Assembly (NCBI GenBank): GCA_040218735.1
Contig: JAVJQW010000017.1
Location: 288,001 to 352,000, forward strand
DNA length: 64,000 bases
Direction: 5' to 3'
Source of the DNA: Deltaproteobacteria bacterium
Lineage (GTDB): Bacteria; Myxococcota; Kuafuiibacteriia; Kuafuiibacteriales; Kuafuiibacteriaceae
Shown piece after piece: positions 1-40,993 of this stretch. The position numbers and the translations under genes are program-made. Below the pieces are notes generated by a model, which saw nothing but the letters and a program-made list of their open reading frames with translations, ran no database searches and was not told where the DNA came from. Position 1 is the stretch's first letter. Every line of letters begins with the position of its first letter.

Positions 1-126
1 GCGCAGCTCGAGCGGCAGCTCGAAGCGATGCAAGCCGCCTTGCAGGCCGAGCTCACGGAAGCGGAGCTGTCCGGCTACGACATGGGCGAGCTGGATCCCG
101 AGGACGACCCGGGGGCCGGTTACTAG
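1..126 (+). CDS. sctL: 3' end of T3SS stator protein SctL/FliH-like (partial)
   Basis: Frame 1 reads AQLERQLEAMQAALQAE...GY*. This resembles the FliH/SctL C-terminal motif, and its stop overlaps the GTG of sctN. Confidence 0.6.
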   Translation, partial: AQLERQLEAMQAALQAELTEAELSGYDMGELDPEDDPGAGY

Positions 127-1445
127 TGGTCGCCGCCCCGATCGACTTCTCTCGATACGCGCGCCGGGTGCGCAAGACGCGCTTCACGCGCGTGCGCGGT
201 CGCGTGACGGAGATGACCGGCCTGATCATCAAGGCCGCGGTCCCGGGCGTGCGCATCGGGGAGCTCGTGGAGATCGTCAACCCGACGCACAGCCTGCAAG
301 CCGAGGTCGTCGGCTTCCGCGACAAGGAAGTGATGTTGATGCCCTTCGGGTTCCCGGAGGGCGTCGGTCCGGACTCGGAGGTCGTGCCCTACGGGCGGCC
401 GTTCGAAGTGCGCTGCGGCGAGGGTCTGCTCGGTCACGTCGTCAACGGTCTGGGCCAGCCGATCGACGGCGCGAGCCTCAGCGAGATCCGCGGGCTCGAG
501 GACTGGGCCGTGGAACGCACGCCGCCCGATCCGCTGGATCGTGAGCGCGTGCTGGAACACATCGCGTTCGGCGTGCGCGCGATCGACGGGCTGCTGACGA
601 TCGGTAAAGGTCAGCGCGTCGGGCTGTTCGCGGGCTCCGGTGTCGGTAAGTCGACCTTGATGGGGCAGATCGCCCGAAACACCGAGGCCGAGATCGTCAT
701 CTGCTGTCTGATCGGCGAGCGTGGTCGTGAGGTGAAGGACTTCATCGAGGAGTCGCTCGGTGAGGAGGGGATGAAGAAGTCGGTGGTGGTCGTGGCGACC
801 TCCGACGAGTCCTCGCTCGTTCGTCAGAAGTCGGCGTTCGTCTCCACCGCGATCGCGGAGTGGTTCCGCGACCAGGGCGCGCGGGTGTTGTTGATGATGG
901 ACTCGACGACGCGCTTCGCGCGTGCGCAGCGCGAGATCGGCTTGGCGGTCGGTGAGCCGCCGGCGCGCCAAGGTTATCCGCCGTCGGTGTTCTCGCAGCT
1001 GCCTCGGTTGTTGGAGCGCACGGGCAACTCGTCGAAGGGATCGATCACGGCGCTGTACACCGTCCTCGTCGCGGGCGGTGACATGGAAGAGCCGATCTCC
1101 GACGAGGTCCGCGGTATCCTCGACGGCCACATCATCCTCAACCGTGCGCTCGGCGCGCGGAACCACTGGCCGGCGATCGACATCCTGCCGTCCCTGTCGC
1201 GTGTCGCGACGGGCATCATCGCCCCCGAGCACCGCGAAGCGGCGGCGAAGCTCCGCGAGGTGCTCGCGACGTACGAGAAGCAGCGCGACCTCATCCTCCT
1301 CGGCGCGTACCAGTACGGCACGGACCCGGCGACCGACTACGCGATCGACAAGATCGACATGGTCGAGGCGTTCCTCCGGCAGCGCACCGAGGAGAACTCG
1401 CCGTTCGAAGAGTCGATCCAGATGCTGGTCGGCTTGTTCAACTGA
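126..1445 (+). CDS. sctN: T3SS ATPase SctN (FliI/YscN family)
   Basis: Walker A GSGVGKST, LIGERGREV, MDSTTRFARAQREIGL, GSITALYTVL and ILDGHIIL motifs. Confidence 0.96.
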   Translation: MVAAPIDFSRYARRVRKTRFTRVRGRVTEMTGLIIKAAVPGVRIGELVEIVNPTHSLQAEVVGFRDKEVMLMPFGFPEGVGPDSEVVPYGRPFEVRCGEGLLGHVVNGLGQPIDGASLSEIRGLEDWAVERTPPDPLDRERVLEHIAFGVRAIDGLLTIGKGQRVGLFAGSGVGKSTLMGQIARNTEAEIVICCLIGERGREVKDFIEESLGEEGMKKSVVVVATSDESSLVRQKSAFVSTAIAEWFRDQGARVLLMMDSTTRFARAQREIGLAVGEPPARQGYPPSVFSQLPRLLERTGNSSKGSITALYTVLVAGGDMEEPISDEVRGILDGHIILNRALGARNHWPAIDILPSLSRVATGIIAPEHREAAAKLREVLATYEKQRDLILLGAYQYGTDPATDYAIDKIDMVEAFLRQRTEENSPFEESIQMLVGLFN

Positions 1446-1456
1446 GGATTTCGACT

Positions 1457-1942
1457 TTGGCGAAGTACCGACTCCAGACCCTCCTCGAGATCCGCGAGCG
1501 CGCGGAGGAAGACGCCAAGCAGGCGTTCGCCGCCGCGATGGCGCAGCTCAAGCAGGAGCAAGATCTCTTGCAAGAGCTGAAGGACGAGCTCGAACGCATG
1601 ATCGAGGACCGTCACCGCCGCCGCGAGGAGTACGCGAACAAACTCGCGTCGGGGGAGATGAAGGTGACGGACCAGGCCGCCGCCTACCGCTTCATCGACC
1701 GCCTCAAGGAGAAGGAAGTCGAGCAGAAGGGGCGCATCGACGCGCAACGCGAGAACGTGCGCGAAGCCGAAAAGCACATGAAGCGCGCACAGGACGCGCT
1801 CATCCAGGCGACCCAGGACCTCAAGGCGCTGCAGAAGCACAAGGAGAACTGGGAGGCGCAGGTGAAAAAGGAACGCGCCATGCGCGAGGCCGAGCAGCTC
1901 GACGAGATCGCGCAGACGATCTACCAGCAGCGGAACAAGTAG
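1457..1942 (+). CDS. sctO: T3SS stalk protein SctO/FliJ-like
   Basis: 161-aa coiled coil directly after the ATPase, with YRLQTLL at the N-terminus and EQLDEIA near the C-terminus. Confidence 0.8.
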   Translation: MAKYRLQTLLEIRERAEEDAKQAFAAAMAQLKQEQDLLQELKDELERMIEDRHRRREEYANKLASGEMKVTDQAAAYRFIDRLKEKEVEQKGRIDAQRENVREAEKHMKRAQDALIQATQDLKALQKHKENWEAQVKKERAMREAEQLDEIAQTIYQQRNK

Positions 1943-2003
1943 CGTTCGCGCGGTTCAGCGGCTCGAGATGCCCCGCGAGCGCGTCGAGTTTCGATGGTCG
2001 TGG

Positions 2004-2927
2004 TCAAGGGAGCTCGGAGACCACCACGCGGTAGTCCTGGCCGGCCGTCACGAGGTGGCCGCGGTGGAATGCGGCCGCCGTGACGTCGCGTCCACCGTGC
2101 ACCACGAAGGACGCGACGCGCTGACGCGCCTTCACGTCGATCACCGCGACCTCGCCGCCCGGCACGCCCACGGCGACACGCTGCGCATCGATGAACACCG
2201 GAGCGCTCCACGGGCGCTCGACCGTCCCCCGCGTCGCGTCGCGAACCACGACGTTGCCCTCCGGGGAGAGGTTCGTCTCGAAGGCGCCGTCGAAGCCGAA
2301 CACCGTGAGGTCGCGCGCGGTGAACGCCATGAGGTCACCGGTGGGCGAGGTGGCGATCGCGCTCATGCCGTCGGTGGGTTCCGCGATCTTCGGGCCTTCG
2401 ACACGGACGAGGTGATCACCTTCCAGCGCCGCGTACGCCACGTGGGAGCCGCCCTGGCGGACCGCCGCGCAGACCAGGCGGGTGCCGTCGAAGGCGAGCG
2501 AGACGTTGCGCTCGCCGCCGAAGCTCTCGAGCGCGACGGTCTCGTCGCCGAAGAGCCAGAGGATCTCTGCGTCCCCGACCGCCGCGACGCGGTCGCCGAC
2601 GAAAGTCACCGCCTGCACCTCGTGGCCGGCGGGTTTGGCGATGATCCGGACGCGCTCGCCGGCTTCGACATCCCACACCTCGATGTCCCCCGCGCCCACG
2701 ACGACCGCGCGGCGACCGTCGAACGCGCAGTCGTGCACGATGTCGAGATCACACTCGAGGCGGTGACGAAGCGTGAAGTCGTCGCCCCACACGAAGAGCG
2801 TCCCGTTGGAGTCGGCGCCGACGAGCGTCGTGCCGTCCTCGGAGAAACGGAGCGCGACGATGTGCTCGACGTCGTCTTCGATGACCCGACCCACGTTGGA
2901 CGTGACCTTAGCAGCTACGAAATTCAT
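2004..2927 (-). CDS. WD40-like beta-propeller protein, putative immunity protein
   Basis: Repeated blade motifs (LFVWG, IEVWDVEAG, AVTFVG, LVTAGQDYRVVV). Starts 10 bp after the toxin stop, with a GAGGG ribosome-binding site. Confidence 0.6.
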   Translation of the reverse strand: MNFVAAKVTSNVGRVIEDDVEHIVALRFSEDGTTLVGADSNGTLFVWGDDFTLRHRLECDLDIVHDCAFDGRRAVVVGAGDIEVWDVEAGERVRIIAKPAGHEVQAVTFVGDRVAAVGDAEILWLFGDETVALESFGGERNVSLAFDGTRLVCAAVRQGGSHVAYAALEGDHLVRVEGPKIAEPTDGMSAIATSPTGDLMAFTARDLTVFGFDGAFETNLSPEGNVVVRDATRGTVERPWSAPVFIDAQRVAVGVPGGEVAVIDVKARQRVASFVVHGGRDVTAAAFHRGHLVTAGQDYRVVVSELP

Positions 2928-2937
2928 TGCGGATCCC

Positions 2938-5900
2938 TCACTGGTGGAAGACTTCGATCTGGACGTTCGGATAGTCCGTCCGGAACTTCGACATCACGCG
3001 CTGACACGACGGGCACGGCGGCAGCTCCGTGAAGATCCGCAGCCGCGCGTCGGCGCCCTTCGGCAGCTTCGACAGCGCATCGTTCACCAACCCCATCAAC
3101 CGCACCTCGGAGTCGTTCATGCGCGACATCTTGTGCTGCCCGGGCACGTCCTCCAGCACCCGCGCCTCCGCCTCGTACGGGTTCCCGGGCACCCCTTCAT
3201 CGGGACCGCCACCGCTCCGACGCGGACCGATCGGCTGCCGCACACCGTCGACCTCCAGCTCCGCGTACGCCCGGTTCGGCTTCTCACCGTCCGGGAGCTT
3301 CAGCTTCTTCACCTCCTCGACGGGGTTGCGGTCGAAGGCGCCAGGACGTGCGTCCGAGATCGGCGATACCTCGATGCCGGCGGTCTTGCGGATCGACTCG
3401 TACATCGCCTGCTGCGACGCCTTGTACTCGTCCATGAACGCCTGACGCGTCGCCTTCTCGTTGGCCTCCCACGTCTCCTTCGCGCGCTGCGCCTGCGCGA
3501 GCTCCTCGTCGGAGAGCCGGCCCGGCGGGCGCTTGGGTTTGTCACCCATCGTCCCGTACTCGGTCGCGAGGCGGCGGCTCTTCTCACTCGCGCTGAGGAA
3601 CTCACGCGCGGCGGATGCGTTGGCGTCCGTCGGGTTCTGCTCGACGAGTTTCTTTGCGAGGCGGACGTCCTCCGCCATGCCCTCGACGCGCTTGCGCTGA
3701 CTGGCCGCCTGTTTGCCGGTGTGTGGCCACTGATCGAGCGCCCGGTCGAGATCCTTCCCGGCGACGTCGAGCTGTTTCAGGATGTCGTCGGCGAAGGTCG
3801 ACGGCTTGAGCTTCGCGCGCTCCGGAGCGTCGAGCTTCTTGGGCGCCGGTCCGTCGACGTCCGCCTTCGCCTTACCGCGCCACAGGCGCCCCAGCCCGTT
3901 CGTCGCGCCCTGCGACAGCGGGTTGAGGATCGCGCCGAACGCAGCGCCGCGGAGCCCGTTCATGTTCGCTTCGCTGAGACTCTTGCCGTCGAGCAGCGAG
4001 TTGGAGGTCCCGACGATGTAACCATCGACAGCGCCCTCGCCGATCGTCGTGCCGCCCCAGATGCCGGCGCGTGTGAGCATCGAGACGCTCTGCCCGGTTG
4101 CCAGCTTCGTCGCCTGGTTCGCGAGCATCCGCTGCGCGGCCTGACGCGCGAGCATGTTCGTGCCGGTCGCCGACAGCCCGTTGATCCCACCCTTGAGCAG
4201 ATCGAGGGCGACGTTCCCATCGTACTCGCCGCTCCCGGTCCATGCGTCGAGGCCCTTCGTCCCGACCTTCGTGATCGCACCCGCCGCCGCGCCGACGAGC
4301 AGCGACGCACCACCGGTGAACGGCGCCGCCGCGGCCGCGGTGAGCGCGACGCCCACGGATGCGAAGTCCGAGATTCCTTCCACCCAGTTGCTCTGCGACT
4401 TCTGGAAGCGCTGGATGTGATCCGGGACCGCCTGAATCTTGTCGTTCAGGTTCGTGACGCGGTCGCGGTACGCCTTCACGAAGTCTTCGTGCGAGCCCTT
4501 GAAGTTCGCGAGGTTCTCGACGTCGCGACGCGCGCGGTACGCGTCGTGAATCGTTCGCACGACCGCGTTGCTCCCGAGCTCGGAGTCGATCAGCCACCCA
4601 TCCTTGCTGCCGAGGTTGTTCTTGATCGCATCGGCGAGGTCACCGACGACCCCCTGCTCGCGCAGGATGCGGTCGAACGTACGGTCGAGCCGGTCGACCT
4701 CCTTGCCCACGTTCTCGACGAGGCTCTTCCGCAGCTTCCCCTCGAGCTGCTCCACGGAGAACCGCGTGTAGTCCTCGCTGACCTGCGCGTGCTGTGCGTC
4801 GGACAGGTCGTCCATCGACTTCTTGAGGTAGGGGATCGGGTTGTTCGGCTCGGCGCGCGCGGCCTTCATCCGCTCCGCGATGTCCGAGTCCTCGAGCCCC
4901 GCGGCGCGCATCTCACGCTCGTCGCGGTAGTACAGCTCGGAGGTCGGCGCGGGAGACTTCACCTCTGGCGCCGTCCAGGTCGGCGCCGCCTTCCGCTCGC
5001 CGAACAGCCCGGAGTCGAGTGAGAAGTCGTGTTTCTTGCTCGGGTGGCAGTCGTAGCACTTCTCGCCGGTCATGAGGCGCGACAGCTGCGCCGGGTCGAG
5101 CTGCGGACGCTGAGCTGCTTCGTGCTGCTGTACCCGCTCGCGGAATCCTTCGAACGAGTTGGGATCGCGATCGAACAGCTCTCCGTTGTCGCGTTTGTAG
5201 CCGTCGATCTCCGACAGCGCGCGGAAGCGGTCGTAGCTACTGACCTTGGAGATGTCCTTGCCGGCGACGTCGGCGAGGAACGCTTCGCGGTCGACGCCGT
5301 AGAACGGGCTGTCGTCGCCCCAACCGTTCTTCGTGTACTCACTGTCGAGGCGCGCGTGGTGCGGACGAATCTTCTTGTCGAGCTCCTTCAGGCGGAAGTT
5401 CGCGACGTGATCGTCGTAGACCTGCCGTTGCTCGGCGGTCATCTGCTCCGGCTGGATCTTCAGGCGCTGCCGCGGGTCGCCGTTCGACAGCTCGAGCCGG
5501 AAGCGCAGCGCGCTCTCGTCCTGGTAGCGCTTCGCGAGCTGGTCATACTGCTCGGTGCCCTTCCGCACGCTGGGGTGATCGGTGCGGATCTTGTTGTCGA
5601 TCGCGGTGTCGAGGCGTTCGCGAGCGCCGGCGTGGATGTCGCGGAGGGTGTTGGCCTGCGTGAAAGGCGACGACAGCGAGAACGGCTCGGTCTTCTTGTC
5701 GGGGTGGCAGTCGTAGCACTTCTCGGTGTTGGCGAAGATGTTCCGGCGATCGATCCGGTCGAGCCGGTCGTCCGGCTCGACCGCGGTGTCCTTCGACGCC
5801 CACTTCGCCGGGTCGAAGAGCCGCGCCTGCTCTTCGCGTGAGTAGAACAGGTCGTCGTGCCCGGGCTGCACGCCGGTGACCGGGTCGTAGGTGTTCGCGT

Positions 5901-6981
5901 CCGCCGGGCGATGCGCACGGATCGTCGACAGCGCCGCCTTCGAGTCGCGGTGGGAGAGGTCGGAGACCGGCGTCTGCTCGAGCTGCGAGATGAACTGCTG
6001 CGTCCCCTCGGACATCGGGCGCCGCACGAGGTCGTGGGCGAGCTGCTGCATGCGCTCGCGCGACTCGGGCGCGAGCTCCTTCGCGCGCGAGGCCTCCTGC
6101 AGGCGGTTCGACTCGCGCAGCCGGAAGTCACGCTCGTACTTACGCGCCTGCGGCATCTCGTCGGCGGCGAGGCGATCGGAGTAGCGCTGCGCCTCTTCGG
6201 CGCGCTCCACGGGGCTCATGCCCTGGACGGTCGATTCGAAGCCACGGTCGAGCTCGGCCCGGACCGCGTCGTGGTTCACCGGCTTCGGGCCGACGCGTTC
6301 CGTAGGCCGGAACTTCGCGAGCGCCGAGAAGTCGAGCGGGGTGAAGTCCTCCTTCTTGTCCGGGTGGCAGTCGCGGCAGTCGACGCTGTTCCGCAGCGGA
6401 TCCCGGAACGGGTTCTTGGTGAGGGACTGAAGGGCGTCGGTCGGCTGCGGCTTCTCCTTCGTCTTCGCGAGGTAGTCCTCGAGGCTGCGGATCTGTCGAT
6501 CCATCGTGTCCTTGAACTCGGCGTCGTTGTTGCGGCGGTGGCGGTCGTGGAGCTGTTGGTAGGTCGGGAGTGCATCACTCGGCGTGGTGTCGCTCCGCGT
6601 CTTCTCCTCCTCGGCCGGCGCCCGGGTTTGGACGGGCCGCCCCTCGGCGAGGTGTGTCTCGGTTCGGCGGAGCTCCGTCGCTTCGTCCGTGACCTGACGT
6701 TCCGGTTGCTCGCGAACCTTCGGCCGCTCTGCGCCGGTGGTGTGATCCTGTTTCGCGACGCGTTGGTCCGCATCGTTGGCGGGCGGCTGGTAGTCGTCGC
6801 CCTTCGCCTCCGGCGTGCCCTTCGCGCCTCCCGCGCCGCCCTGCCCCGCTTTGTCGCCCGACTGCGGCGGTGGCGGTGGTTTGGTCTGCTCCTCTTGTTT
6901 CTTCTTCTCGATGCGCTGGAGCGCGAGCGCGATCCGGTCTTCTGCGGTCCCACCGAGGGGAAGTGCATTCACGGGCGGCAT
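2938..6981 (-). CDS. Large polymorphic-toxin-like protein: three CxxCH repeats, a hydrophobic segment and a C-terminal nucleic-acid deaminase (BURPS668_1122/Toxin-deaminase-like)
   Basis: C-terminus RMNDSEVRL...IFTELPPCPSCQRVMSKFRTDYPNVQIEV; hydrophobic segment AAAAAPFTGGASLLVGAAAGA. The start was moved to ATG 6981 because the longer ORF overlaps sctP antisense. Confidence 0.8.
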   Translation of the reverse strand: MPPVNALPLGGTAEDRIALALQRIEKKKQEEQTKPPPPPQSGDKAGQGGAGGAKGTPEAKGDDYQPPANDADQRVAKQDHTTGAERPKVREQPERQVTDEATELRRTETHLAEGRPVQTRAPAEEEKTRSDTTPSDALPTYQQLHDRHRRNNDAEFKDTMDRQIRSLEDYLAKTKEKPQPTDALQSLTKNPFRDPLRNSVDCRDCHPDKKEDFTPLDFSALAKFRPTERVGPKPVNHDAVRAELDRGFESTVQGMSPVERAEEAQRYSDRLAADEMPQARKYERDFRLRESNRLQEASRAKELAPESRERMQQLAHDLVRRPMSEGTQQFISQLEQTPVSDLSHRDSKAALSTIRAHRPADANTYDPVTGVQPGHDDLFYSREEQARLFDPAKWASKDTAVEPDDRLDRIDRRNIFANTEKCYDCHPDKKTEPFSLSSPFTQANTLRDIHAGARERLDTAIDNKIRTDHPSVRKGTEQYDQLAKRYQDESALRFRLELSNGDPRQRLKIQPEQMTAEQRQVYDDHVANFRLKELDKKIRPHHARLDSEYTKNGWGDDSPFYGVDREAFLADVAGKDISKVSSYDRFRALSEIDGYKRDNGELFDRDPNSFEGFRERVQQHEAAQRPQLDPAQLSRLMTGEKCYDCHPSKKHDFSLDSGLFGERKAAPTWTAPEVKSPAPTSELYYRDEREMRAAGLEDSDIAERMKAARAEPNNPIPYLKKSMDDLSDAQHAQVSEDYTRFSVEQLEGKLRKSLVENVGKEVDRLDRTFDRILREQGVVGDLADAIKNNLGSKDGWLIDSELGSNAVVRTIHDAYRARRDVENLANFKGSHEDFVKAYRDRVTNLNDKIQAVPDHIQRFQKSQSNWVEGISDFASVGVALTAAAAAPFTGGASLLVGAAAGAITKVGTKGLDAWTGSGEYDGNVALDLLKGGINGLSATGTNMLARQAAQRMLANQATKLATGQSVSMLTRAGIWGGTTIGEGAVDGYIVGTSNSLLDGKSLSEANMNGLRGAAFGAILNPLSQGATNGLGRLWRGKAKADVDGPAPKKLDAPERAKLKPSTFADDILKQLDVAGKDLDRALDQWPHTGKQAASQRKRVEGMAEDVRLAKKLVEQNPTDANASAAREFLSASEKSRRLATEYGTMGDKPKRPPGRLSDEELAQAQRAKETWEANEKATRQAFMDEYKASQQAMYESIRKTAGIEVSPISDARPGAFDRNPVEEVKKLKLPDGEKPNRAYAELEVDGVRQPIGPRRSGGGPDEGVPGNPYEAEARVLEDVPGQHKMSRMNDSEVRLMGLVNDALSKLPKGADARLRIFTELPPCPSCQRVMSKFRTDYPNVQIEVFHQ

Positions 6982-34140: not shown

Positions 34141-34238
34141 CTGCCCCTCCCCTCTCCCCTTCACCTCCAACCAGGACTCCCCGGACCGCGGTGGCCCCGC
34201 GGCACGCGCAGGTTTTTGCGATTTCCTGGGGGGATGCT

Positions 34239-35015
34239 ATGAACCGGATGAGCCGAAAAGCGATGGCGACCAAGGACAACAAGCCGAAGCCAGACAGCCT
34301 CCTCGACAAGCTGATCGCTCAGGGCAAGAAGCCCGAGGATCTGTCCGAGGAGGAGAAGGAAAAGATCCTCGCGGAGGTCGACAAAGAAGTCGAGAACATG
34401 ACCGCCGAGGACGTGATCAAGGCGGTCGAGAAGGGCGAGATCGAGATCGAGTACGTCGATCCGCCGAACCCGATCGACAACTTCACCGAGGAGAACTTCA
34501 AGAAGTTCCTGTTCGGCAAGATCACGTGGGCCCAGCTCGAAGGCATGACGATGGAGCAGGCCTACGCGATCGCGGAGTTCGGCTACACGATGTACCAGCA
34601 GGGCCGCTACAAGGACGCGCGGACGCTGTTCGAAGGCCTGGTCATCGGCAACCCGTACGACCCGTACTTCCACGCGATGCTGGGCGCGATCTTCACGAAG
34701 CTCGACATGCACGAGGAGGCCGCGCAGGAGTTCTCGATCGCGATCGAGCTCGACCCCGAGGACATCAACTCCTACGTGAACCGCGGCGAGCTGCTGCTGC
34801 AACACGGCGAGTTCGAGTACGCGATGGAAGACCTCAAGGCCGCCATCGACCTCGACCCCGAGGGCAAGAACCCCGCTTCGCTGCGCGCTCGGGCCCTCGC
34901 GGCCGCGACGGCCGCGGCGATCAAGGAGCTGATCGAGCGGCGTGAGGCGGAGGGTGACGACGCGCCCAAGAAGCCCGCCGGGAAGAAGCCGTCGGCTTCT
35001 CCGCCCAAGAAGTAG
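34239..35015 (+). CDS. TPR chaperone (SycD/LcrH-like)
   Basis: GYTMYQQGRYKDARTLFEGLVIGNPYD; paralogous to 32004..32525. The start could be 34263. Confidence 0.8.
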   Translation: MNRMSRKAMATKDNKPKPDSLLDKLIAQGKKPEDLSEEEKEKILAEVDKEVENMTAEDVIKAVEKGEIEIEYVDPPNPIDNFTEENFKKFLFGKITWAQLEGMTMEQAYAIAEFGYTMYQQGRYKDARTLFEGLVIGNPYDPYFHAMLGAIFTKLDMHEEAAQEFSIAIELDPEDINSYVNRGELLLQHGEFEYAMEDLKAAIDLDPEGKNPASLRARALAAATAAAIKELIERREAEGDDAPKKPAGKKPSASPPKK

Positions 35016-35147
35016 GCGCTCGGCTGCTTCGCGCGCGCCCTGGGACCGGGAACCCGAAAGATCGAAACTGGGGCCGGGGGATGGGAACTTGAATTGGGCG
35101 TGTAGTTGAGCAATCGCCTGTAGATCGGCCATCCTACCCCCCACCCG

Positions 35148-37307
35148 ATGAAGAACTTCATCGCAGTCCTCACGACCGGCGACCTCCGCCAGACGATCGG
35201 TCGGTTCTCCGACCTGATGCTCGCCGGCCTGGTGATGCTCATCGTTTCGATGCTCATCATCCCGCTGCCGCCGTTCCTCCTCGACATCTTCATCGTCATC
35301 AACATCTCGATCTCGGTGCTGCTGCTCCTGCTCGCGATGTACATCCCGAACGCGCTGCACCTCGCGTCGTTCCCGTCCCTGCTGCTCGTGACGACGCTGT
35401 TCCGCCTCGCGCTGAACGTGTCGTCGACGCGGCTGATCCTCCTGACCGCGAAGGCCGGTGAGGTCATCAAGGCGTTCGGCAACTTCGTCGTCCAGGGCAA
35501 CCTGGTCGTCGGTATCGTCATCTTCCTCATCCTCACGATCATCCAGTTCCTGGTGATCACGAAGGGCGCGGAGCGTGTCGCCGAGGTCGCGGCGCGCTTC
35601 ACCCTCGACGCCATGCCCGGCACGCAGATGTCGATCGACGCGGACCTCCGCGCCGGTGCGTTCGACATGGACGAGGCGCGGCGGAAGCGAAACGACCTCA
35701 ACCGCGAGTCGCAGCTGTTCGGTTCCATGGACGGCGCGATGAAGTTCGTGAAGGGCGACTCGATCGCCGGTTTGATCATCACCGCGATCAACATTGTCGC
35801 GGGCATCATCATCGGAACGACGATGCTCGACATGCAGGCCGCCGAAGCCCTTCAGGTCTTCGCGATCCTGACGGTCGGCGACGGCCTCGTCTCCCAGATC
35901 CCGGCGCTCCTCATCTCGATCACCTCCGGCCTCATCGTGACGCGCGTCGCCTCCGAGGACGCGGACAACCACCTCGGTAAGGACATCTCGCTGCAGCTCC
36001 TCGCACAGCCCCGCGCGTTCATGATCGCGACGGCGATGCTCACGATCTTCGGGCTCGTCCCCGGTCTCCCGATGGTGCCGTTCCTCTTCTGCGCGGCGCT
36101 CGTCGGCGCGGTCGGCTACGGCCTCAACCGCACCAAGCGCCTCAAGGCGGAGGGGCGCCTGCAGCAGATCGACGACGGCTCGCCGCCGTCAGAGGAGGAG
36201 GTCCAGGAGCAGCGGCAGAAGCGCATCCAAGCGCAGCGCATGCAGGAGGGCCAGTCGCAGCAGATGCTGCCGGTGGTCACGCCGATCGCGCTCGAGGTCG
36301 CCGCCGACCTCATCCCGCTCGTCGAGGACTCCGGCGAGGGCAGCAAGTTCCTCGGCGAGATGATCCCGATGATGCGCGACGGCCTCTTCTACGAGCTCGG
36401 CGTGCGCTTCCCCGGCATCCGCGTCCGCGGCAACGAGAGCGACATGCCGCCGGGCTCGTACCTGATCATGATCAACGAGATCCCGTTGGTCATGGGCACC
36501 GTGTCCCAGGACAAGGTGCTGGTGAACGACACCGTCGAGCGACTACGCCTCCTCAACATCGAAGGCGAGCCCGCGACGAACCCCGCGAACGGCAACGAGT
36601 GCGCGTGGATCGACGCGCAGTTCCAGGACGTCGCGGAGCAGGCCGGCCTCACGACCTGGGACGCGGCCGGCTACATCGTCCTGCACCTGTCGAGCGTGCT
36701 GCGTAAGAATGGCGCGGAGTTCGTCGGGATCCAGGAGACGATGAACATGCTCGAGCAGCTCGAGCAGGCGTTCCCGGCGCTCGTGAAAGAGACGGTGCCG
36801 AAGGTCGTCTCCCCGTTCCAGCTGACGGACATCCTGCGGCGCCTGATCGAAGAGGAGATCTCGATCCGCGACCTCCGCTCGATCCTCCAGGCGCTCGCCG
36901 AGTGGGGGCAGGTCGAGCACGACACGGTCATGCTGACCGAGTACGTGCGCGCCGCGCTCAAGCGCTACATCAGCCACAAGTACACGCGCGGTCAGAACAC
37001 CCTGATCGTGTACCTGCTCGATCCACAGATCGAAGAGACGGTGCGCAGCTCGATTCAGCACACGTCGTCCGGCTCGTACCTCGCGCTCGAACCAGAGATC
37101 ACGCAGGAGATCCTGTCGGCGGTGCGTACGGAGGTCGGCTCGCTGCCGCCCACCGCGCAGAACCCAGTCATCCTCACCACGATGGAGATCCGGCGTTACT
37201 TCCGAAAGCTCGTGGAGCTCGAGTTCCCGCACCTCGCGGTGCTCTCGTACCAAGAGCTGTCGCCGGACATGAACATCCAGCCGATCGCGCGCATCTCGTT
37301 GGAGTAA
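35148..37307 (+). CDS. sctV: T3SS major export apparatus SctV/FlhA
   Basis: ERVAEVAARFTLDAMPG, GSMDGAMKFVKGD, GDGLVSQIPALL and VLSYQEL motifs. Confidence 0.96.
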   Translation: MKNFIAVLTTGDLRQTIGRFSDLMLAGLVMLIVSMLIIPLPPFLLDIFIVINISISVLLLLLAMYIPNALHLASFPSLLLVTTLFRLALNVSSTRLILLTAKAGEVIKAFGNFVVQGNLVVGIVIFLILTIIQFLVITKGAERVAEVAARFTLDAMPGTQMSIDADLRAGAFDMDEARRKRNDLNRESQLFGSMDGAMKFVKGDSIAGLIITAINIVAGIIIGTTMLDMQAAEALQVFAILTVGDGLVSQIPALLISITSGLIVTRVASEDADNHLGKDISLQLLAQPRAFMIATAMLTIFGLVPGLPMVPFLFCAALVGAVGYGLNRTKRLKAEGRLQQIDDGSPPSEEEVQEQRQKRIQAQRMQEGQSQQMLPVVTPIALEVAADLIPLVEDSGEGSKFLGEMIPMMRDGLFYELGVRFPGIRVRGNESDMPPGSYLIMINEIPLVMGTVSQDKVLVNDTVERLRLLNIEGEPATNPANGNECAWIDAQFQDVAEQAGLTTWDAAGYIVLHLSSVLRKNGAEFVGIQETMNMLEQLEQAFPALVKETVPKVVSPFQLTDILRRLIEEEISIRDLRSILQALAEWGQVEHDTVMLTEYVRAALKRYISHKYTRGQNTLIVYLLDPQIEETVRSSIQHTSSGSYLALEPEITQEILSAVRTEVGSLPPTAQNPVILTTMEIRRYFRKLVELEFPHLAVLSYQELSPDMNIQPIARISLE

Positions 37308-37352: not shown

Positions 37353-38771
37353 GTGCCGTTCCCCCGCCTCCCGCTCCTCTTCATCATCGCCGCGCTGGCT
37401 ACGGCGTGCGGCTCCGAGCCCCCCCAAAGCTCGCCCTCGACGCAGCGCGACGCCGGAGCGGCGCCCCCCACGGCCTGCGCACCGAACACCCTCGACGCGC
37501 CAGCGGCCGAGCTCGACGCCACCATCCGCGCGCAATGCACCCGGCAGATTTCGTGCGGTATCCCGTTCCTCAACACGGCGGCGACGGTCGAGGCCTGCGT
37601 CGCCGAGCGCACCCTCGCCCTCGACGACTACGCGCGTTCGCTCGCGACGCGCGGCTCGCGGGTCAGCGCCGAGAACGCTTGCCTGTGTCGCGTGGGATAC
37701 GAGGAGGAGGCGTGCGGCGCGTTGAGGCGCACCCCGCCGACGGCGTGCGGTCAGCTCGTGGTCGGCCCGGGCGCGCAGGGTGACGACTGCGCCTTCGACT
37801 TCGACTGCAGCGAGGGGCTCGTCTGCCTAGCGACGACGCAGTGCCCGGGGACCTGCGTCGAGATTCCGCCGCGGTGCACCGTCGACAGCTGCGGCGCAGA
37901 AGCGAAGTGTGACTTCGGGACCGGGCGATGTGATCCGCTCAGTCGCGCCGGGCAGGAGTGTACGGTCGGATGCGTCGAGGGGCTGTTCTGCGGGTACGCG
38001 CCGGGCGAGACACCGATGGGTCCTCCGACCTGCCTCCCCGCCGCGGAACCCGGCGCACGTTGTATCGGCGCAGAGGGCTCGTGTGTGTCGGGCTACACGT
38101 GCCAAGGGAGCTCGGGGGTGCCGCAGAGGTGTGCGCCGGCGCTCGGCCTCGACGACATGTGCTCGAGCTACACCGACTGTGCGGACGATCTGTTCTGCGA
38201 CTTCGACGTGTCGCGCTGCCGACCGCGTTCGGCGATCGGTGAGGCGTGTAAGAACTTCGGGCGACACTGCGTCGAGGGGCTGTACTGCGCGTCCCCGGCC
38301 GAAGCCGAGTGTGGACCGGATCGCCCGTGCGGAACCAGCCGCGAGTGCTGCCAAGTCGACGGCCGCGCCCAGTGCGTCCCCCTCGGCGGCACGTGCGCGC
38401 CACTCGACGGGACCTGCGCTCCGCTCGCGGACTACGCGGGGCCCGATCTCGTGAAACTCGCCGCTGGCGACGACTGTAGAGGCGGCCGGTGTCCGCTCGG
38501 CACCACGTGTCGCCTCGCCACCGAGACCGCGACGGTCCCGACGTGTGCCGACCTCTTCGAGCTCGGCGAGGCGTGCAACGCGTACGGCACCATCGACCCC
38601 TACGTCTGCCGGACGGGGATCTGCGACGTGTTTGCGTCGATGCGCTGTGTCGAGCTCAAGCTGCCGGGTGAGGCCTGCACGACCGACGCGGCGTTCACGC
38701 TCGAGTGTGGCTCGCTGATGTGCGACGGTGGCGTTTGCGCCCCCTGGGATTCGTTGTGCCGCGCGCCGTGA
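37353..38771 (+). CDS. Cys-rich repeat lipoprotein (Dickkopf/EB-like repeats)
   Basis: ATAC lipobox; repeated 'G..C....C..GL.C' units. Confidence 0.75.
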   Translation: MPFPRLPLLFIIAALATACGSEPPQSSPSTQRDAGAAPPTACAPNTLDAPAAELDATIRAQCTRQISCGIPFLNTAATVEACVAERTLALDDYARSLATRGSRVSAENACLCRVGYEEEACGALRRTPPTACGQLVVGPGAQGDDCAFDFDCSEGLVCLATTQCPGTCVEIPPRCTVDSCGAEAKCDFGTGRCDPLSRAGQECTVGCVEGLFCGYAPGETPMGPPTCLPAAEPGARCIGAEGSCVSGYTCQGSSGVPQRCAPALGLDDMCSSYTDCADDLFCDFDVSRCRPRSAIGEACKNFGRHCVEGLYCASPAEAECGPDRPCGTSRECCQVDGRAQCVPLGGTCAPLDGTCAPLADYAGPDLVKLAAGDDCRGGRCPLGTTCRLATETATVPTCADLFELGEACNAYGTIDPYVCRTGICDVFASMRCVELKLPGEACTTDAAFTLECGSLMCDGGVCAPWDSLCRAP

Positions 38772-38834: not shown

Positions 38835-39393
38835 GTGAAGGCGCTGACCAAGGGCCGGAAGGCCATCCCGAGCTGGTTCTTTTCGGTCGTCGTCGTGCGC
38901 CTCGGGCACCGCTTCCTGTTGGTGCACGAGAAGAAACACGGCCAGCAGTGGTACCCCATCTCCGGACCTCGCTTCGCGAGGGCCGGGGGCACGTTCCATC
39001 GGACGACCGACGGCTGACGCCGTCGACCGCCTCGGAGGGTACCTCCCCGCGGGGCGCGTCGAGCCCGGTGAGTCGTTCGCCGACGCCGCGATCCGCGAGA
39101 CGCTCGAAGAAGCCGGCGTGCCGGTCGTGCTCGACGGTGTGTTGCGCGTCGAGCACCGACCCTCCCCCGACGGCACGCGGATGCGCGTCGTGTTCGTCGC
39201 GCACCCCGCCGACGACACCCCGCCGAAGTCCGTGCCCGACGACGAGACGCTCGGTGCGCGGTGGCTGACGATCGACGAGATGCGATCGCTCCCCCTCCGC
39301 GGCGACGACGTCATCGCGCTGTTTGCGATGGTCGAACGCGGCGCCCCCGTCTACCCGATGTCGCTGTTCGGCCCCGAAGGCCTCTACGCCTGA
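38835..39393 (+). pseudogene. NUDIX hydrolase interrupted by an 88-bp insertion
   Basis: Removing 88 bp joins HGQQWY to LPAGRVEPGESFADAAIRETLEEAGV, a complete Nudix box. Confidence 0.85.
38950..39043. mobile_element. Small palindromic MITE/REP-like insertion with a GGTACC duplication
   Basis: GGTACC at 38950-38955 and 39038-39043; internal hairpins CCTCGC-TTC-GCGAGG and CGACGGC-TGAC-GCCGTCG; imperfect terminal CTCCG/CGGAG. Confidence 0.7.
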
Positions 39394-39438
39394 CGTCGGA
39401 TACCGTCAGCGGCGCACAGGAACGTTCGCGGGGCTTCG

Positions 39439-39466
39439 GCAACCGTCGCGGAGCGCAGACCGAAGA
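39439..39466 (+). promoter_or_regulatory. Putative sigma28-like promoter
   Basis: GCAA-N16-ACCGAAGA followed by an AAGGA RBS and ATG 39479. Confidence 0.4.
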
Positions 39467-39478
39467 TGAAGGATAGCC

Positions 39479-40993
39479 ATGCGTCTTCACGGTCCCCGCC
39501 CCACGACGACCCCCACGACGAGCGCCGCTCCGCAGGCTCCGACCGAGGAGAGGAAACGTCGCGCGGTCTTCGGATTCGGGCGTCTCTTCGCGCGTGAACG
39601 CTTCGCGCGTCGTCGGTCGGAAACCTCCCGCGCGCCGCAGACGCAGGGCGCTGCGTTCGGGAGTCGCCGGGGCCGCGGGTTGGCGGCGTTCGGTGCGGTG
39701 CTCGGCGCGATGTTCGCCGCGACGGCGACCGGATGCGCGCCCTCCTCCGAACCTGCACCCGCGCCGCCGCCCGCGGTGGTCATCGAGCAGGAGGCCCCCG
39801 AGAGCTTCCACGATCTTTCGCCGACGACGCCCGTGTTCGAGGTCCCCGCGGAGCCGACGCCCGAGCGCGTGGACGAGGTCGGCACCGGATCGATCCAGCT
39901 GTTCTACGATCCGCAGGGCCTCGGAGAGCTCTCGGCCGCGGAGCAGAACGCACAGTCGGTGATCGATCACCTCGTGCAGGCCGACGACTTCGACGCGACC
40001 CTCACGTTCTTGGAGGACGCCACGGTCATCTCGCGGCCGCTCGAACCCGAGGCGCGTCGACTCGCGGAGCGGATGGGGGAGTCGATCCCGCTCGCGCCGC
40101 GCGAGACGGGGGTGATCACGCTCGACGCCGACGCGCTCACGACCATCGCGGATCACTTCGCGGCGAACCACATCGCGCTCGACGATCTGGCGGGCTTCGC
40201 GGCGCCGCGCGGGATCGAGGCCCCGGCGGAGGGCATGACGCCCGCGTTCGCGGGGCGCTACCTCGACGCGCTGTCGACGCGCGAAGTGCTCACCGACGTT
40301 CGAGGGGAGCTCGGCGTGGAGCAGTCCCGCGCGCTGGAGGTCGTCCATCACCTGAACGCCGACGAGGTCGCGGCGCTCTCGGAGCGGCTCGGCGTCGAGG
40401 CGCGCCCCGGTAACGACGCCTGGATCACGAACGGGTTGGTGGACCGCTTCGTCGGCGCGCTCCACGACCGCATCATCTACCTCGACGACATGGGCATCGA
40501 GACGACCCGCGCGGTGATGGGGATGGGCGGCGGAGGCATCGACGCCGACTTGTCGCGCGCGCTCGCATCGCTGCCTGACCTGTCGAGGAACGTCACGAAC
40601 TGCGCGCTGGGCCAGACGGAGTCGTTCGCGGTCTACCCGATCGGCATCGACCGCAAGAACGGGAACGTGGAGTGGCTCCGTCACGAAGCGGCGGTGCCGT
40701 TCCGCCAGATGTTCCACGAGGCGCCCGCGGACCTCGGGCTCTTCCCGCGCAGCGGCTTCCGCTCGAACGCGGAGCAGCAGTCCCTCCAGTCGACGGGGCT
40801 CGCGGCGCCGGTCTGTACGTCGAACCACGAGGACGGCATGTCCGTCGACATCGGGTTCGTGCAGGGCGGCGTCGCGTACGGGCTCGATTCGCAGAGCTCG
40901 GCGCAGTACCAGTGGCTCGCGGCGAACGCGCCGGCGCGCGGGATCGTGAACGACGTCGCGCACGAGCCCTGGCACCACACGTTCGTGGGGTGA
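39479..40993 (+). CDS. Protein with a C-terminal M15 (VanY-like) D-Ala-D-Ala peptidase domain
   Basis: SGFRS, SNHEDGMSVD and EPWH motifs; internal lipobox ATGC at about residue 86. Confidence 0.75.
   Translation: MRLHGPRPTTTPTTSAAPQAPTEERKRRAVFGFGRLFARERFARRRSETSRAPQTQGAAFGSRRGRGLAAFGAVLGAMFAATATGCAPSSEPAPAPPPAVVIEQEAPESFHDLSPTTPVFEVPAEPTPERVDEVGTGSIQLFYDPQGLGELSAAEQNAQSVIDHLVQADDFDATLTFLEDATVISRPLEPEARRLAERMGESIPLAPRETGVITLDADALTTIADHFAANHIALDDLAGFAAPRGIEAPAEGMTPAFAGRYLDALSTREVLTDVRGELGVEQSRALEVVHHLNADEVAALSERLGVEARPGNDAWITNGLVDRFVGALHDRIIYLDDMGIETTRAVMGMGGGGIDADLSRALASLPDLSRNVTNCALGQTESFAVYPIGIDRKNGNVEWLRHEAAVPFRQMFHEAPADLGLFPRSGFRSNAEQQSLQSTGLAAPVCTSNHEDGMSVDIGFVQGGVAYGLDSQSSAQYQWLAANAPARGIVNDVAHEPWHHTFVG

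What the first reader, a model, noticed from the sequence alone, without database searches (positions are those of the whole stretch)
1..40993. Candidate antibacterial T3SS: a Myxococcota injectisome with an embedded toxin-immunity pair and bacteria-directed enzymes
Seen: a full export apparatus (sctLNOPQRSTUV) with, inside or beside it, a deaminase toxin plus downstream partner gene, an HExxH protein and a peptidoglycan M15 peptidase. All three enzymes have disordered Pro/Ser/Thr-rich N-termini without an N-terminal Sec signal. Established: characterised T3SSs mostly target eukaryotes and their effectors usually lack immunity genes, while an atypical T3SS contributes to prey killing in Myxococcus xanthus. 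Inference: this system delivers polymorphic toxins into bacteria, a largely undescribed T3SS role.
Basis: partly seen in the sequence, partly recalled or inferred. Interest (0 to 1): 0.88.

Follow-up and report, generated by a model that had tools for sequence, protein, structure and literature searches.

The report
Deaminase toxin cassette inside myxobacterial T3SS locus
The window holds this lineage's copy of the needle-less type III secretion system of myxobacteria, broken up by unrelated inserted genes; one insert is a new kind of antibacterial toxin with its immunity gene, and nothing yet shows that the secretion system exports it.

Summary
The genes are real. sctL(3' end)-N-O, P, Q-fliO-R-S-T and U-LcrH-x-LcrH-V are present. 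A 1347-aa protein ends in a BURPS668_1122 deaminase and has a beta-propeller gene downstream.

The locus matches the Myxococcota needle-less T3SS* in gene order. The window holds no secretin, needle or SctJ.

The "embedded" argument is weak:
- In 6 of 10 relatives sctP directly follows sctO, and none of the 10 has the toxin.
- The same junctions elsewhere carry miscellaneous genes.
- Two distant toxin homologues with usable context lie away from T3SS genes.
- SctV occurs in 344 of 401 phylum genomes, so co-occurrence says little.
- The M15 peptidase has a Tat/lipoprotein-type signal. The HExxH protein is an orphan known only by its motif.

Some points favour T3SS export. The toxin family lacks signal peptides. 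T6SS markers were not found in 4 of 5 carrier genomes. T3SS* effectors are still unknown in print.

The toxin is a new polymorphic-toxin family. Its conserved glycine-rich hydrophobic core has no Pfam match but 366 representative relatives with varied toxic C-termini.

My odds of T3SS-dependent export are about 0.3.

The parts
1..126 (+). sctL (FliH-like stator), 3' end; the gene starts upstream of the window
   Evidence: The ORF in L001 runs into the window. FliH PF02108 E=2.4e-16 and T3SS_SCTL. The stop was found by translation.
126..1445 (+). sctN, T3SS ATPase
   Evidence: ATP-synt_ab and T3SS_ATPase_C. NCBIfam SctN 603 bits against FliI 588.
1457..1942 (+). sctO (YscO/FliJ-like stalk)
   Evidence: YscO-like PF16789 E=2.6e-25. 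An orthologue is present in 16 of 20 class genomes.
2004..2927 (-). Predicted immunity protein, 307 aa, WD40-like beta-propeller
   Evidence: Weak WD40/beta-propeller hits. It is conserved downstream of the deaminase domain in G011 (72% identity) and G007 (29%). It has no Imm2/Imm3 Pfam hit.
2938..6981 (-). Polymorphic toxin, 1347 aa. Order of parts: disordered N-terminus, three ~220-aa modules each with CxxCH, coiled coil plus glycine-rich hydrophobic core, linker, C-terminal deaminase.
   Evidence: Start codon and GC3 profile. Alignments A1 and A2. No match to solved structures.
2938..3138 (-). BURPS668_1122-family deaminase domain (aa ~1281-1346), with R-x-x-D-S-E and P-C-P-S-C motifs
   Evidence: PF14424 E=3e-13, 50.6 bits against a cut-off of 29.6. 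The motifs are invariant in 3 homologues. DxE is the clade signature according to PMC3239186.
3862..4779 (-). Conserved core (aa 735-1040): helical region plus glycine-rich hydrophobic block with the invariant LDAxTGSGxY motif
   Evidence: Alignment A3. The only Kyte-Doolittle >1.2 segment is aa 867-906. The profile finds 366 representatives. No Pfam family matches it.
5044..6378 (-). Region with three CxxCH motifs at aa 202, 422 and 642, exactly 220 aa apart. These hold all six cysteines outside the deaminase.
   Evidence: C422, C425, H426 and P427 are invariant in 5 sequences.
7259..8139 (+). sctP-like ruler (FliK C-terminal domain), divergent from the toxin gene across 277 bp
   Evidence: Flg_hook PF02120 E=7.4e-8. 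Likely ATG at 7259. The G011 orthologue is 293 aa.
8371..15261 (.). Insertion between sctP and sctQ: lipoprotein, Cu monooxygenase-like gene (-), 1164-aa ASH/HYDIN Ig-repeat protein, SDR
   Evidence: Pfam. Absent at this junction in the compact loci of G019, G012, G003, G013 and G002.
15300..20075 (+). sctQ, fliO, sctR, sctS, a conserved 174-aa membrane ORF, and sctT
   Evidence: Pfam and NCBIfam. The same order is found in relatives and in the f9 genome G145.
20086..30149 (.). Insertion between sctT and sctU: TetR, RibD_C, ADYC lipoprotein, DUF1554, MsrA, HExxH orphan, alpha/beta hydrolase, TonB-dependent receptor
   Evidence: Pfam. In the compact loci of G019 and G012 this gap is about 1.6-1.8 kb.
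24590..25921 (+). HExxH orphan protein, 443 aa (HEMEH), with a conserved Pro/Arg-rich N-terminus and no signal peptide
   Evidence: The start is supported by the 443-aa homologue P0156. Only 2 homologues exist. No Pfam, NCBIfam or PADLOC hit. The AF2 model is unusable, pLDDT 36.
30339..37307 (+). sctU, a conserved 151-aa ORF, LcrH-like chaperone 1 (32004-32525), a Met/Gly-rich 407-aa protein (32866-34089), LcrH-like chaperone 2 (34191-35015), and sctV
   Evidence: Pfam and NCBIfam: LcrH_SycD E=1e-24 and 3e-26; SctV hrcV 844 bits against FlhA 691. The block is conserved in the class.
37353..38771 (+). Cys-rich lipoprotein (signal ...LATAC); not part of the T3SS
   Evidence: Sequence. No tblastn match downstream of sctV in relatives.
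39479..40993 (+). VanY/M15 peptidase with a Tat/lipoprotein-type signal, directly upstream of alaS
   Evidence: PF02557 E=1.4e-7. RRGRG, hydrophobic stretch and ATATG-C. Not found downstream of sctV in 3 of 3 relatives with enough sequence.

Best explanation
The window carries this class's orthologue of the Myxococcota needle-less T3SS*. That means an export gate, ATPase complex, C-ring protein, ruler and two class-II-type chaperones. In this genus the locus has been split by three insertions of unrelated genes.

One insertion, between sctO and sctP, is a polymorphic toxin-immunity cassette. The 1347-aa toxin has no Sec/Tat signal. Its parts, in order:
- an N-terminal part restricted to the phylum, with three 220-aa CxxCH modules;
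- a widely conserved helical and glycine-rich hydrophobic core;
- an exchangeable C-terminal toxin, here a BURPS668_1122 (DxE-type) nucleic-acid deaminase.

Shown: the domain layout, the C-terminal polymorphism, conservation of the partner gene with the toxin domain, and the insertion history.

Inferred: the protein leaves the producer by a Sec-independent route. The hydrophobic core then helps the C-terminal domain cross the target's membrane. The deaminase damages or mutates target nucleic acid. The beta-propeller protein neutralises it in the producer and its kin.

Export route: the neighbouring T3SS* is the single most likely candidate, at about 0.3. No evidence beyond position and elimination supports it, and the position looks incidental. 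The M15 peptidase and most other flanking enzymes are ordinary Sec/Tat or housekeeping proteins.
For: T3SS identity and orthology.

Insertion history:
- sctP follows sctO directly in 6 of 10 relatives' loci.
- None of the 10 has a tblastn match to the toxin or the immunity protein.
- The same cassette sits at the same junction in the congener G011.
- A 98.8%-identical 25-kb contig from another study also has it there.

Polymorphic-toxin architecture:
- N-terminal and central parts are conserved to about aa 1035, and the C-termini then differ. Four have the deaminase, P0008 a PRTase-CE-like end, and P0007 and G268 unrelated ends.
- A profile of the core finds 366 representatives at E<=1e-3, 162 of them at E<=1e-10.
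- Of 49 representatives scanned, 9 carry toxin-type C-termini: ADP-ribosyltransferase 2, RelA/SpoT 2, Zeta 1, ABC1/APH kinase-like 4. The other 40 have no Pfam hit.

Deaminase: PF14424 scores above its cut-off, and R-x-x-D-x-E and CxxC are invariant. This matches the clade description in PMC3239186.

Immunity: the partner gene travels with the deaminase domain into G007, where the toxin's N-terminal part is different.

No signal peptide appears in the 19 family N-termini printed.
Against: - No experiment shows toxicity, export or immunity.
- The delivery role of the hydrophobic core rests on analogy alone. It has no Pfam match, and the AF2 model was too poor to use (pLDDT 48.6).
- The cassette's place between sctO and sctP is kept across 72% protein identity within the genus. 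It shares a 277-bp divergent region with sctP. Both would fit functional linkage rather than chance.
- T6SS markers TssC and Hcp were not found in the window's genome (96.5% complete) or in 3 other carriers.
- Contractile-sheath genes were not found in 3 of 5 carriers.
- That leaves the T3SS as the only tested Sec-independent machine common to all five. This argues against 'incidental'.
Confidence: 0.6

Rival explanations
1. The toxin is a substrate of the neighbouring T3SS*. It would be recognised through its disordered N-terminus, or through its hydrophobic segment by an LcrH-type chaperone. It would then be exported and delivered to other bacteria. This would be the first polymorphic toxin-immunity class using a T3SS, and the first named T3SS* effector type.
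For: - The toxin has no Sec/Tat signal, and neither do the 19 family N-termini printed.
- The gene lies between sctO and sctP in both genomes of the genus and in a near-identical strain.
- SctV is present in all 5 carrier genomes. TssC and Hcp were found only in G268, and a sheath only in G000 and G011.
- Two class-II chaperone genes lie in the locus, and the toxin has one TM-like hydrophobic segment, as translocators do.
- T3SS* is needed for prey lysis in M. xanthus and its effectors are unknown (PMC10433427 and PMC12075869, passages read).
Against: - The cassette is genus-specific. 0 of 10 loci of other genera have it.
- The O|P, P|Q and T|U junctions elsewhere hold a thermolysin-like protease with a propeptide, kinases, regulators and tryptophan-catabolism genes.
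- The G268 homologue lies on a different contig from both FHIPEP genes, among efflux and phosphatase genes.
- P0008/L017 has no T3SS gene within 10 kb on either side.
- SctV is in 344 of 401 phylum genomes, so co-occurrence carries little weight.
- The core domain also occurs in low-GC proteins with quite different N-termini.
- The locus has no secretin or needle, so delivery beyond the inner membrane is unexplained.
Confidence: 0.3
2. The toxin is exported by another Sec-independent route, and its place in the T3SS locus is chance. Candidates are a contractile injection system, a Tad/Kil-type pilus machine, a type I exporter, vesicles, or release by lysis.
For: - The T3SS junctions take unrelated cargo.
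- Distant homologues are unlinked to T3SS genes.
- G000 and G011 carry phage-sheath-type genes.
- The core resembles, weakly, Bacillota clusters annotated pre-toxin TG or LXG, which use T7SS. Atlas scores were 0.86-0.87, a lead only.
Against: - No such machine lies near any homologue examined.
- Sheath genes were not found in 3 of 5 carriers, and T6SS markers in 4 of 5.
- A C-terminal type I signal is unlikely, because the C-terminus is the exchangeable toxin.
- Tad/Kil, T1SS and T4SS were not tested here.
Confidence: 0.3
3. The pair is not an exported weapon. It acts inside the cell, as a toxin-antitoxin or anti-phage abortive-infection module with a deaminase effector.
For: There is no signal peptide. 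Toxin and neutraliser genes are adjacent. Deaminases occur in some defence systems (recalled, not from a call).
Against: - Neither protein has a PADLOC match.
- About 1100 aa of conserved non-catalytic sequence with a hydrophobic segment precedes the toxin.
- Exchangeable C-termini on a constant N-terminal body mark delivered polymorphic toxins (PMC3482391, passages).
Confidence: 0.07

Closest known systems
Needle-less T3SS* of Myxococcus xanthus (mxan_2434-2464) / the 'Myxo' NF-T3SS of Abby & Rocha 2012
   Same: - The order sctN-O-P-Q-fliO-R-S-T-U-LcrH-..-LcrH-V matches a family-f9 genome, with SctV 60% and SctN 65% identical.
- No secretin or needle gene lies in the locus.
- LcrH-type chaperones are present.
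- Scores fall between flagellar and injectisome models.
   Different: - Here the locus is split by three insertions.
- No SctJ lies in the locus. The f9 genome has one upstream of sctL. This class keeps a YscJ-like gene elsewhere, beside a FliG-like gene.
- No SctD or SctI was identified.
- Function in this organism is untested.
Classical polymorphic toxin systems (Zhang et al. 2012, PMC3482391), including BURPS668_1122-clade deaminase toxins (Iyer et al. 2011, PMC3239186)
   Same: - A constant N-terminal body with an exchangeable C-terminal toxin.
- An immunity-type gene directly downstream.
- DxE and CxxC deaminase signatures, with the protein ending soon after CxxC.
   Different: - No known trafficking domain was found by Pfam (no RHS, PAAR, LXG, haemagglutinin, or signal peptide).
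- The immunity protein is a beta-propeller, not Imm2 or Imm3.
- The N-terminal part carries three CxxCH modules.
- The 2012 survey states that classical polymorphic toxins do not appear to use T3SS (passage).
DddA/DddI of Burkholderia cenocepacia (T6SS-delivered interbacterial deaminase toxin; PMC7901873, search listing and abstract only)
   Same: An interbacterial deaminase toxin with a cognate immunity protein. It is the likely functional analogue.
   Different: - By my recollection DddA belongs to the related SCP1.201 clade.
- DddA is delivered by a T6SS, whose markers were not found in this genome.
- The substrate of the present enzyme is unknown.
T3SS translocators with class II chaperones (YopB/IpaB with LcrH/IpgC)
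   Same: A signal-less N-terminus, coiled-coil regions, a hydrophobic membrane-type segment, and LcrH-like chaperone genes in the same locus.
   Different: - No sequence match to translocator families.
- The toxin is two to three times longer and has a catalytic C-terminus.
- The conserved protein actually flanked by the two chaperone genes is the Met/Gly-rich 407-aa protein, not the toxin.

Membership tests
Non-flagellar T3SS (injectisome) | Export gate SctR, S, T, U and V | tested here: met
   All five found by Pfam and NCBIfam. SctV scores hrcV 844 bits against FlhA 691. SctS and SctT score slightly higher on the flagellar models.
Non-flagellar T3SS (injectisome) | Cytoplasmic ATPase and sorting parts SctN, L, O and Q | tested here: met
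   SctQ passes the SpaO_YscQ cut-off (112.7 bits against 100.8).
Non-flagellar T3SS (injectisome) | Inner-membrane rings SctJ and SctD | tested here: inconclusive
   None among the window ORFs. PF01514 finds only the flagellar FliF in the genome. tblastn with a relative's YscJ-like protein finds an orthologue at C9:183233-184075 (53% identity), beside a FliG-like gene. SctD was not specifically testable.
Non-flagellar T3SS (injectisome) | Outer-membrane secretin SctC and needle SctF | tested here: not met
   No secretin or needle Pfam hit among the 36 window ORFs. The genome's two secretin genes are on contigs C21 and C59, not C23.
Myxococcota needle-less T3SS* | Conserved gene order with Myxococcaceae-type loci, LcrH homologues, no secretin or needle | tested here: met
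   Synteny with G145 of family f9 and with 10 loci of the class. The published description was read in PMC10433427 and PMC3459982 (passages).
Myxococcota needle-less T3SS* | Role in contact-dependent prey lysis | not testable with these tools
   This needs mutants and predation assays.
Polymorphic toxin system | Constant N-terminal body with alternative C-terminal toxin domains | tested here: met
   Alignments A1 and A2. Varied C-termini among the core-domain relatives.
Polymorphic toxin system | Cognate immunity gene directly downstream that co-varies with the toxin domain | tested here: met
   A beta-propeller gene follows the deaminase domain in G000, G011 and G007. Binding itself is not shown.
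Polymorphic toxin system | A recognised trafficking module (signal peptide, RHS/PAAR, LXG, TPS and so on) | tested here: not met
   No such Pfam hit at E<=0.01. No N-terminal hydrophobic segment.
BURPS668_1122 deaminase clade | Family profile match above cut-off; DxE in helix 2 (RxxDxExK); CxxC; frequent truncation after helix 3 | tested here: met
   PF14424 scores 50.6 bits against 29.6, but only profile positions 80-144 of 146 align. R-M-N-D-S-E-V-R and C-P-S-C are invariant in 3 homologues, and the protein ends 21 aa after CxxC. Signatures as given in PMC3239186. The last position is R, not K.
BURPS668_1122 deaminase clade | Imm2 or Imm3 immunity proteins | tested here: not met
   The downstream protein gives only WD40/beta-propeller hits.
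Pre-toxin TG (PF14449) domain | Profile match to PF14449 | tested here: not met
   No PF14449 hit on the toxin or on 49 relatives. The only link is a weak Atlas lead: score 0.87, with PT-TG on 27% of that cluster's members.
Zincin metallopeptidase (for the HExxH protein) | HExxH plus a third ligand in a zincin fold | tested here: inconclusive
   HEMEH is kept as HE[MI]EH in 3 of 3 homologues. There is no family hit. The AF2 model has pLDDT 36. Atlas neighbours (NleC/M85, PipA/GtgA) score 0.75-0.79, below the level that shuffled sequences often reach.
M15 (VanY) peptidase | VanY profile match; periplasmic or cell-wall location | tested here: met
   PF02557 scores 31.8 bits against 25. A Tat/lipoprotein-like signal lies at aa 62-86.

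The most novel reading that the evidence does not exclude
This toxin family is the first polymorphic toxin-immunity class exported by the needle-less Myxococcota T3SS*, and so the first concrete T3SS* effector type.

On this reading the signal-less protein would be threaded unfolded through the export gate into the periplasm. There its three CxxCH sites could receive haem. It would then be passed on, for example by a Tad/Kil-type pilus, to a neighbouring bacterium. The glycine-rich core would carry the deaminase across the target's membrane.

The four extra SctV plus LcrH gene pairs in this genome could then be alternative substrate-docking modules for one export gate.
Probability: 0.2. Interest if true: 0.85.

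Novelty: new variant of a known kind. Interest (0 to 1): 0.5.

Why it matters
The needle-less T3SS* of myxobacteria is needed for prey lysis. The review and the 2025 paper I read (PMC10433427 and PMC12075869, passages) say its effectors are unknown. The 2012 survey of polymorphic toxins (PMC3482391, passage) says such toxins do not appear to use T3SS.

A signal-less polymorphic toxin sitting between sctO and sctP is therefore a concrete, testable candidate. This holds even though the genomic evidence for a link is weak.

The toxin also matters on its own. It defines an unannotated delivery-type domain: no Pfam match, but 366 representative relatives carrying ADP-ribosyltransferase, RelA/SpoT, Zeta, kinase-like and deaminase C-termini. 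It adds an unusual triple CxxCH module and a new beta-propeller immunity type for a DxE deaminase.

The negative results matter too. High-GC ORF over-extension and neighbourhood alone made ordinary lipoproteins look like effectors.

Tried and rejected
- **Core-domain structure.** AF2 on the toxin core (A3, 5 rows) gave pLDDT 48.6. AF2 on the HExxH protein (A6, 3 rows) gave pLDDT 36.3. Both were too poor, so I ran no fold search.
- **Deaminase with beta-propeller.** Complex prediction on A4 plus A5 returned no verdict (score 0.15, mark 0.32). It counts neither for nor against binding.
- **Solved structures.** phmmer of the whole toxin against PDB sequences found no match at E<=1.
- **Sigma-54 promoters.** A scan with TGGCAC-N5-TTGC and up to 1 mismatch gave 2 matches against 2.2 expected. 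Neither lies near T3SS or toxin genes.
- **Defence-system reading.** PADLOC gave 0 hits on 6 proteins.
- **Taxa and context of the low-GC relatives.**
  - tblastn of P0050 against plasmids gave one irrelevant weak hit.
  - The genome search could not reach the metagenome record of L017.
- **Expression.** No RNA holder was listed for window 1-8200. Laying contigs of 4 DNA runs showed the same arrangement in a 25-kb contig and no structural variant I could trust.
- **SctN/SctV trees.** I used NCBIfam score pairs and synteny instead.
- **Co-occurrence with SctV.** Rejected as evidence, because 344 of 401 phylum genomes have it. That tally includes the unpublished genome G195, and no other claim rests on it.
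- **u8371 as SctJ.** I considered this lipoprotein (8371-9120) as a hidden SctJ. I rejected it because it has no family hit and no counterpart in relatives' loci.

Full report
**What is in the window.**
The DNA is 63-75% G+C. I called genes by third-position GC and scanned 36 ORFs of positions 1-43.7 kb against Pfam and 22 against NCBIfam. The window is contig C23:288001-352000 of an 11.6-Mb, 70-contig genome.

The T3SS genes are all intact, but they lie in four blocks:
- sctL (3' end), sctN and sctO at 1-1942;
- sctP at 7259-8139;
- sctQ, fliO, sctR, sctS, a conserved 174-aa membrane ORF and sctT at 15300-20075;
- sctU, a 151-aa ORF, an LcrH/SycD-like chaperone, a Met/Gly-rich 407-aa protein, a second LcrH-like chaperone and sctV at 30339-37307.

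A sigma-54 activator gene diverges upstream of sctL. None of the scanned ORFs is a secretin, needle, SctJ or SctD.

NCBIfam scores sit between flagellar and injectisome models:
- SctV scores hrcV 844 bits against FlhA 691.
- SctN scores 603 against 588.
- SctS and SctT score slightly better on FliQ and FliR.
- FliO is present.

**Which T3SS this is.**
The genome has seven FHIPEP matches. The one on C59 belongs to a true flagellar cluster: FlgE, FlgD, FliF, FliG, FliM, FliN, FliO-Q, FlhB, FlhA, FlhF, FlhG, FliA and rod proteins. The window therefore holds the only non-flagellar gene set.

The organism's class holds only 20 genomes here, all in one family. sctO orthologues occur in 16 of the 20.

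I fetched ten relatives' loci and mapped them by tblastn with the window's proteins. G019, G012 and G003 have a compact locus of about 16 kb. Its order is sctN-O-P-Q-fliO-R-S-(x)-T-U-x-LcrH-x-LcrH-V.

A complete 9.8-Mb genome of the large family f9 has the same order, with SctV 60% and SctN 65% identical. It also has SctL and an SctJ upstream. This fits the published needle-less T3SS* / 'Myxo' system (PMC10433427 and PMC3459982, passages read). Source names on homologues of a locus protein read 'Myxococcota bacterium' or 'Deltaproteobacteria bacterium'.

**The toxin and its partner.**
The 1620-aa ORF is over-extended. GC3 and the start-codon context put the start at the ATG at 6981, giving 1347 aa.

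The sequence searches gave:
- Only six proteins in the 5.8-billion-sequence collection match.
- One locus in species genomes matches. It is the congener G011.
- One metagenome locus matches.
- Two further genomes of a 401-genome phylum sample match strongly: G268 and G132 (where only two candidates per genome were scored).

Alignments show a constant body up to about aa 1035, followed by unrelated C-termini. That is the layout of a polymorphic toxin.

The C-terminus here is a BURPS668_1122-clade deaminase, with PF14424 above its cut-off. R-x-x-D-S-E and C-P-S-C are invariant in three homologues, and the protein ends 21 aa after CxxC. The DxE motif and the truncation are the clade's published signatures (PMC3239186, passages).

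The downstream 307-aa protein gives only weak WD40/beta-propeller hits. It follows the deaminase domain in G011 (72% identity). It also follows it in G007 (29%), where the toxin's N-terminal part is different. That is what a cognate immunity gene should do.

**A new delivery-type core.**
Residues 735-1040 are the best-conserved part. They form a helical stretch followed by a glycine-rich hydrophobic block with the invariant LDAxTGSGxY motif. This block holds the protein's only membrane-like segment, aa 867-906. It has no Pfam match.

A profile of it against 1.84 billion representatives finds 366 proteins at E<=1e-3, 162 at E<=1e-10 and 25 at E<=1e-30.

I scanned 49 of these:
- 9 carry toxin-type C-termini: ADP-ribosyltransferase 2, RelA/SpoT 2 (one weak), Zeta toxin 1, ABC1/APH kinase-like 4.
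- 40 have no Pfam hit.

The more distant members come from low-GC organisms. In them the core lies at about aa 100-350, and the N-termini share an 'NPYLY'-like motif. I could not learn their taxa.

The Atlas gave only weak leads, to Bacillota clusters labelled pre-toxin TG or LXG.

In the window's protein, all six cysteines outside the deaminase lie in three CxxCH motifs exactly 220 aa apart. Relatives have two or three such modules at spacings of 199-225 aa.

**Does the T3SS export it? Evidence against reading position as function.**
- In 6 of 10 relatives' loci sctP follows sctO directly.
- In the other four (G004, G005, G007, G009) something else follows.
- None of the ten has a match to the toxin or the immunity protein.
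- The insertions I could read hold mixed cargo. They include a thermolysin-type protease with a propeptide, Ser/Thr kinases, a sigma-54 activator, an HDOD protein, tryptophan dioxygenase and kynureninase, cyclophilin, and an adenosine deaminase-NUDIX protein.
- The window's own P|Q and T|U gaps hold a Cu monooxygenase, an SDR, TetR, MsrA, a TonB receptor and the like.
- The G268 homologue lies among efflux, TonB, nucleotidase and phosphatase genes. It is on a different contig from that genome's two FHIPEP genes.
- The P0008/L017 homologue has no T3SS gene within 10 kb.
- SctV matches occur in 344 of 401 phylum genomes, so the fact that all carriers have it says little.

**Evidence for T3SS export.**
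- The cassette keeps its place in both genomes of the genus. It also does so in a 98.8%-identical 25-kb contig from another study.
- The toxin gene shares a 277-bp divergent region with sctP.
- The 19 family N-termini printed show no signal peptide.
- TssC and Hcp were found only in G268 among the five carriers. Contractile-sheath genes were found only in G000 and G011.
- Among the machines tested, only the T3SS is common to all five carriers.
- The literature I read says T3SS* effectors are unknown (PMC10433427, PMC12075869). It also says classical polymorphic toxins do not appear to use T3SS (PMC3482391).

I put T3SS-dependent export at about 0.3. It is the single most likely route, but less likely than not.

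**The other 'bacteria-directed enzymes'.**
The M15/VanY protein carries RRGRG, a hydrophobic stretch and the lipobox-like ATATG-C at aa 62-86. It is therefore a Tat/Sec lipoprotein. It sits next to alaS, and it is missing downstream of sctV in 3 of 3 relatives with enough sequence.

The neighbouring Cys-rich protein, the ADYC protein and the 8371-9120 protein also have lipoprotein signals.

For the HExxH protein (24590-25921, 443 aa):
- It has only two homologues.
- Its Pro/Arg-rich N-terminus is conserved and it has no signal peptide.
- It has no family hit.
- Its nearest Atlas clusters are T3SS effector zinc proteases (NleC, PipA/GtgA). The scores of 0.75-0.79 are at the level shuffled sequences often reach.
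- I treat it as unexplained, not as an effector.

**Verdict.**
The system is the known myxobacterial T3SS*, not a full injectisome, and the 'embedded effector' argument is much weaker than it looked.

What is new is the toxin family itself: its unannotated core domain, its CxxCH modules and its beta-propeller immunity partner. Whether it is a T3SS* substrate is open and worth a bench test.

Noticed in passing
own genome: C70:143544-145670, C38:16339-18441, C9:330779-332869, C41:146051-148126; also C16:73260-74189: Four extra full-length SctV paralogues are 45-47% identical to the window's SctV. Each lies next to an LcrH-like TPR gene, with no other T3SS gene nearby. There is also one stand-alone SctV cytoplasmic-domain ORF. 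G011 has a similar set. They might be alternative substrate-docking modules for a single export gate.
   Followed up: partly
own genome C59:~374000-404000 (loci L021, L022): A complete-looking flagellar gene cluster (FlgE, FlgD, FliF, FliG, FliM, FliN, FliO-Q, FlhB, FlhA, FlhF, FlhG, FliA, rod proteins) in a member of a phylum usually described as non-flagellated. PF01514 finds FliF-size ORFs in most of the class's 20 genomes.
   Followed up: partly
window 32866-34089 (+): A Met/Gly/Pro-rich 407-aa protein with a helical C-terminus lies between the two LcrH-like chaperone genes. It is conserved there in the class. It has 211 homologues at E<=0.001, and no listed source name is more specific than 'hypothetical protein'. 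The genome holds three unlinked paralogues sharing the C-terminal ~120 aa, on C18, C50 and C14. It is the most natural candidate for a conserved T3SS* substrate.
   Followed up: partly
window 5044-6378 (-), toxin aa 202, 422, 642: Three CxxCH (haem-c-type) motifs lie exactly 220 aa apart in a protein without a signal peptide. They account for every cysteine outside the deaminase. Relatives carry two or three such modules.
   Followed up: partly
own genome C9:182159-188909; G001 locus L053:8280-15118: A YscJ-like lipoprotein gene lies next to a FliG-like gene, MlaD, MlaE and an Hsp70-like gene. It is conserved in the class but unlinked to the T3SS locus. It may be the missing ring of the T3SS, or part of another machine.
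   Followed up: partly
L052 (G145, family f9): 1819-2918 and 19209-19772: In the Myxococcaceae-type T3SS* locus, three tandem 72-aa ORFs lie between the two LcrH genes. A 187-aa ORF upstream of SctJ gives a weak T3SS needle (PF09392) hit, E=0.0024 and below the cut-off. This is worth a look, given that the system is described as needle-less.
   Followed up: no
window 45202-51597 (+): A 2131-aa ORF has an N-terminal PilZ domain and a C-terminal Hsp70-like domain. The stretch 46-50 kb between them has 74-75% G+C and a strong AT skew of 0.43-0.57.
   Followed up: no
window 24590-25921 (+): The HExxH orphan's nearest language-model neighbours are T3SS effector zinc proteases (NleC/M85, PipA/GogA/GtgA) and HopF2. 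The scores of 0.75-0.79 are not reliable.
   Followed up: partly
proteins P0048, P0050, P0071, P0097, P0118, P0034: Low-GC relatives of the toxin core share an N-terminal 'N-P-[YF]-L-Y' motif. They carry ADP-ribosyltransferase, Zeta or RelA/SpoT C-termini. Their organisms and their export system are unknown to me.
   Followed up: no
window 55498-63014 (+): Two adjacent large paralogous proteins (1235 and 1270 aa) each have TPR, DUF3857 and transglutaminase-core domains.
   Followed up: no
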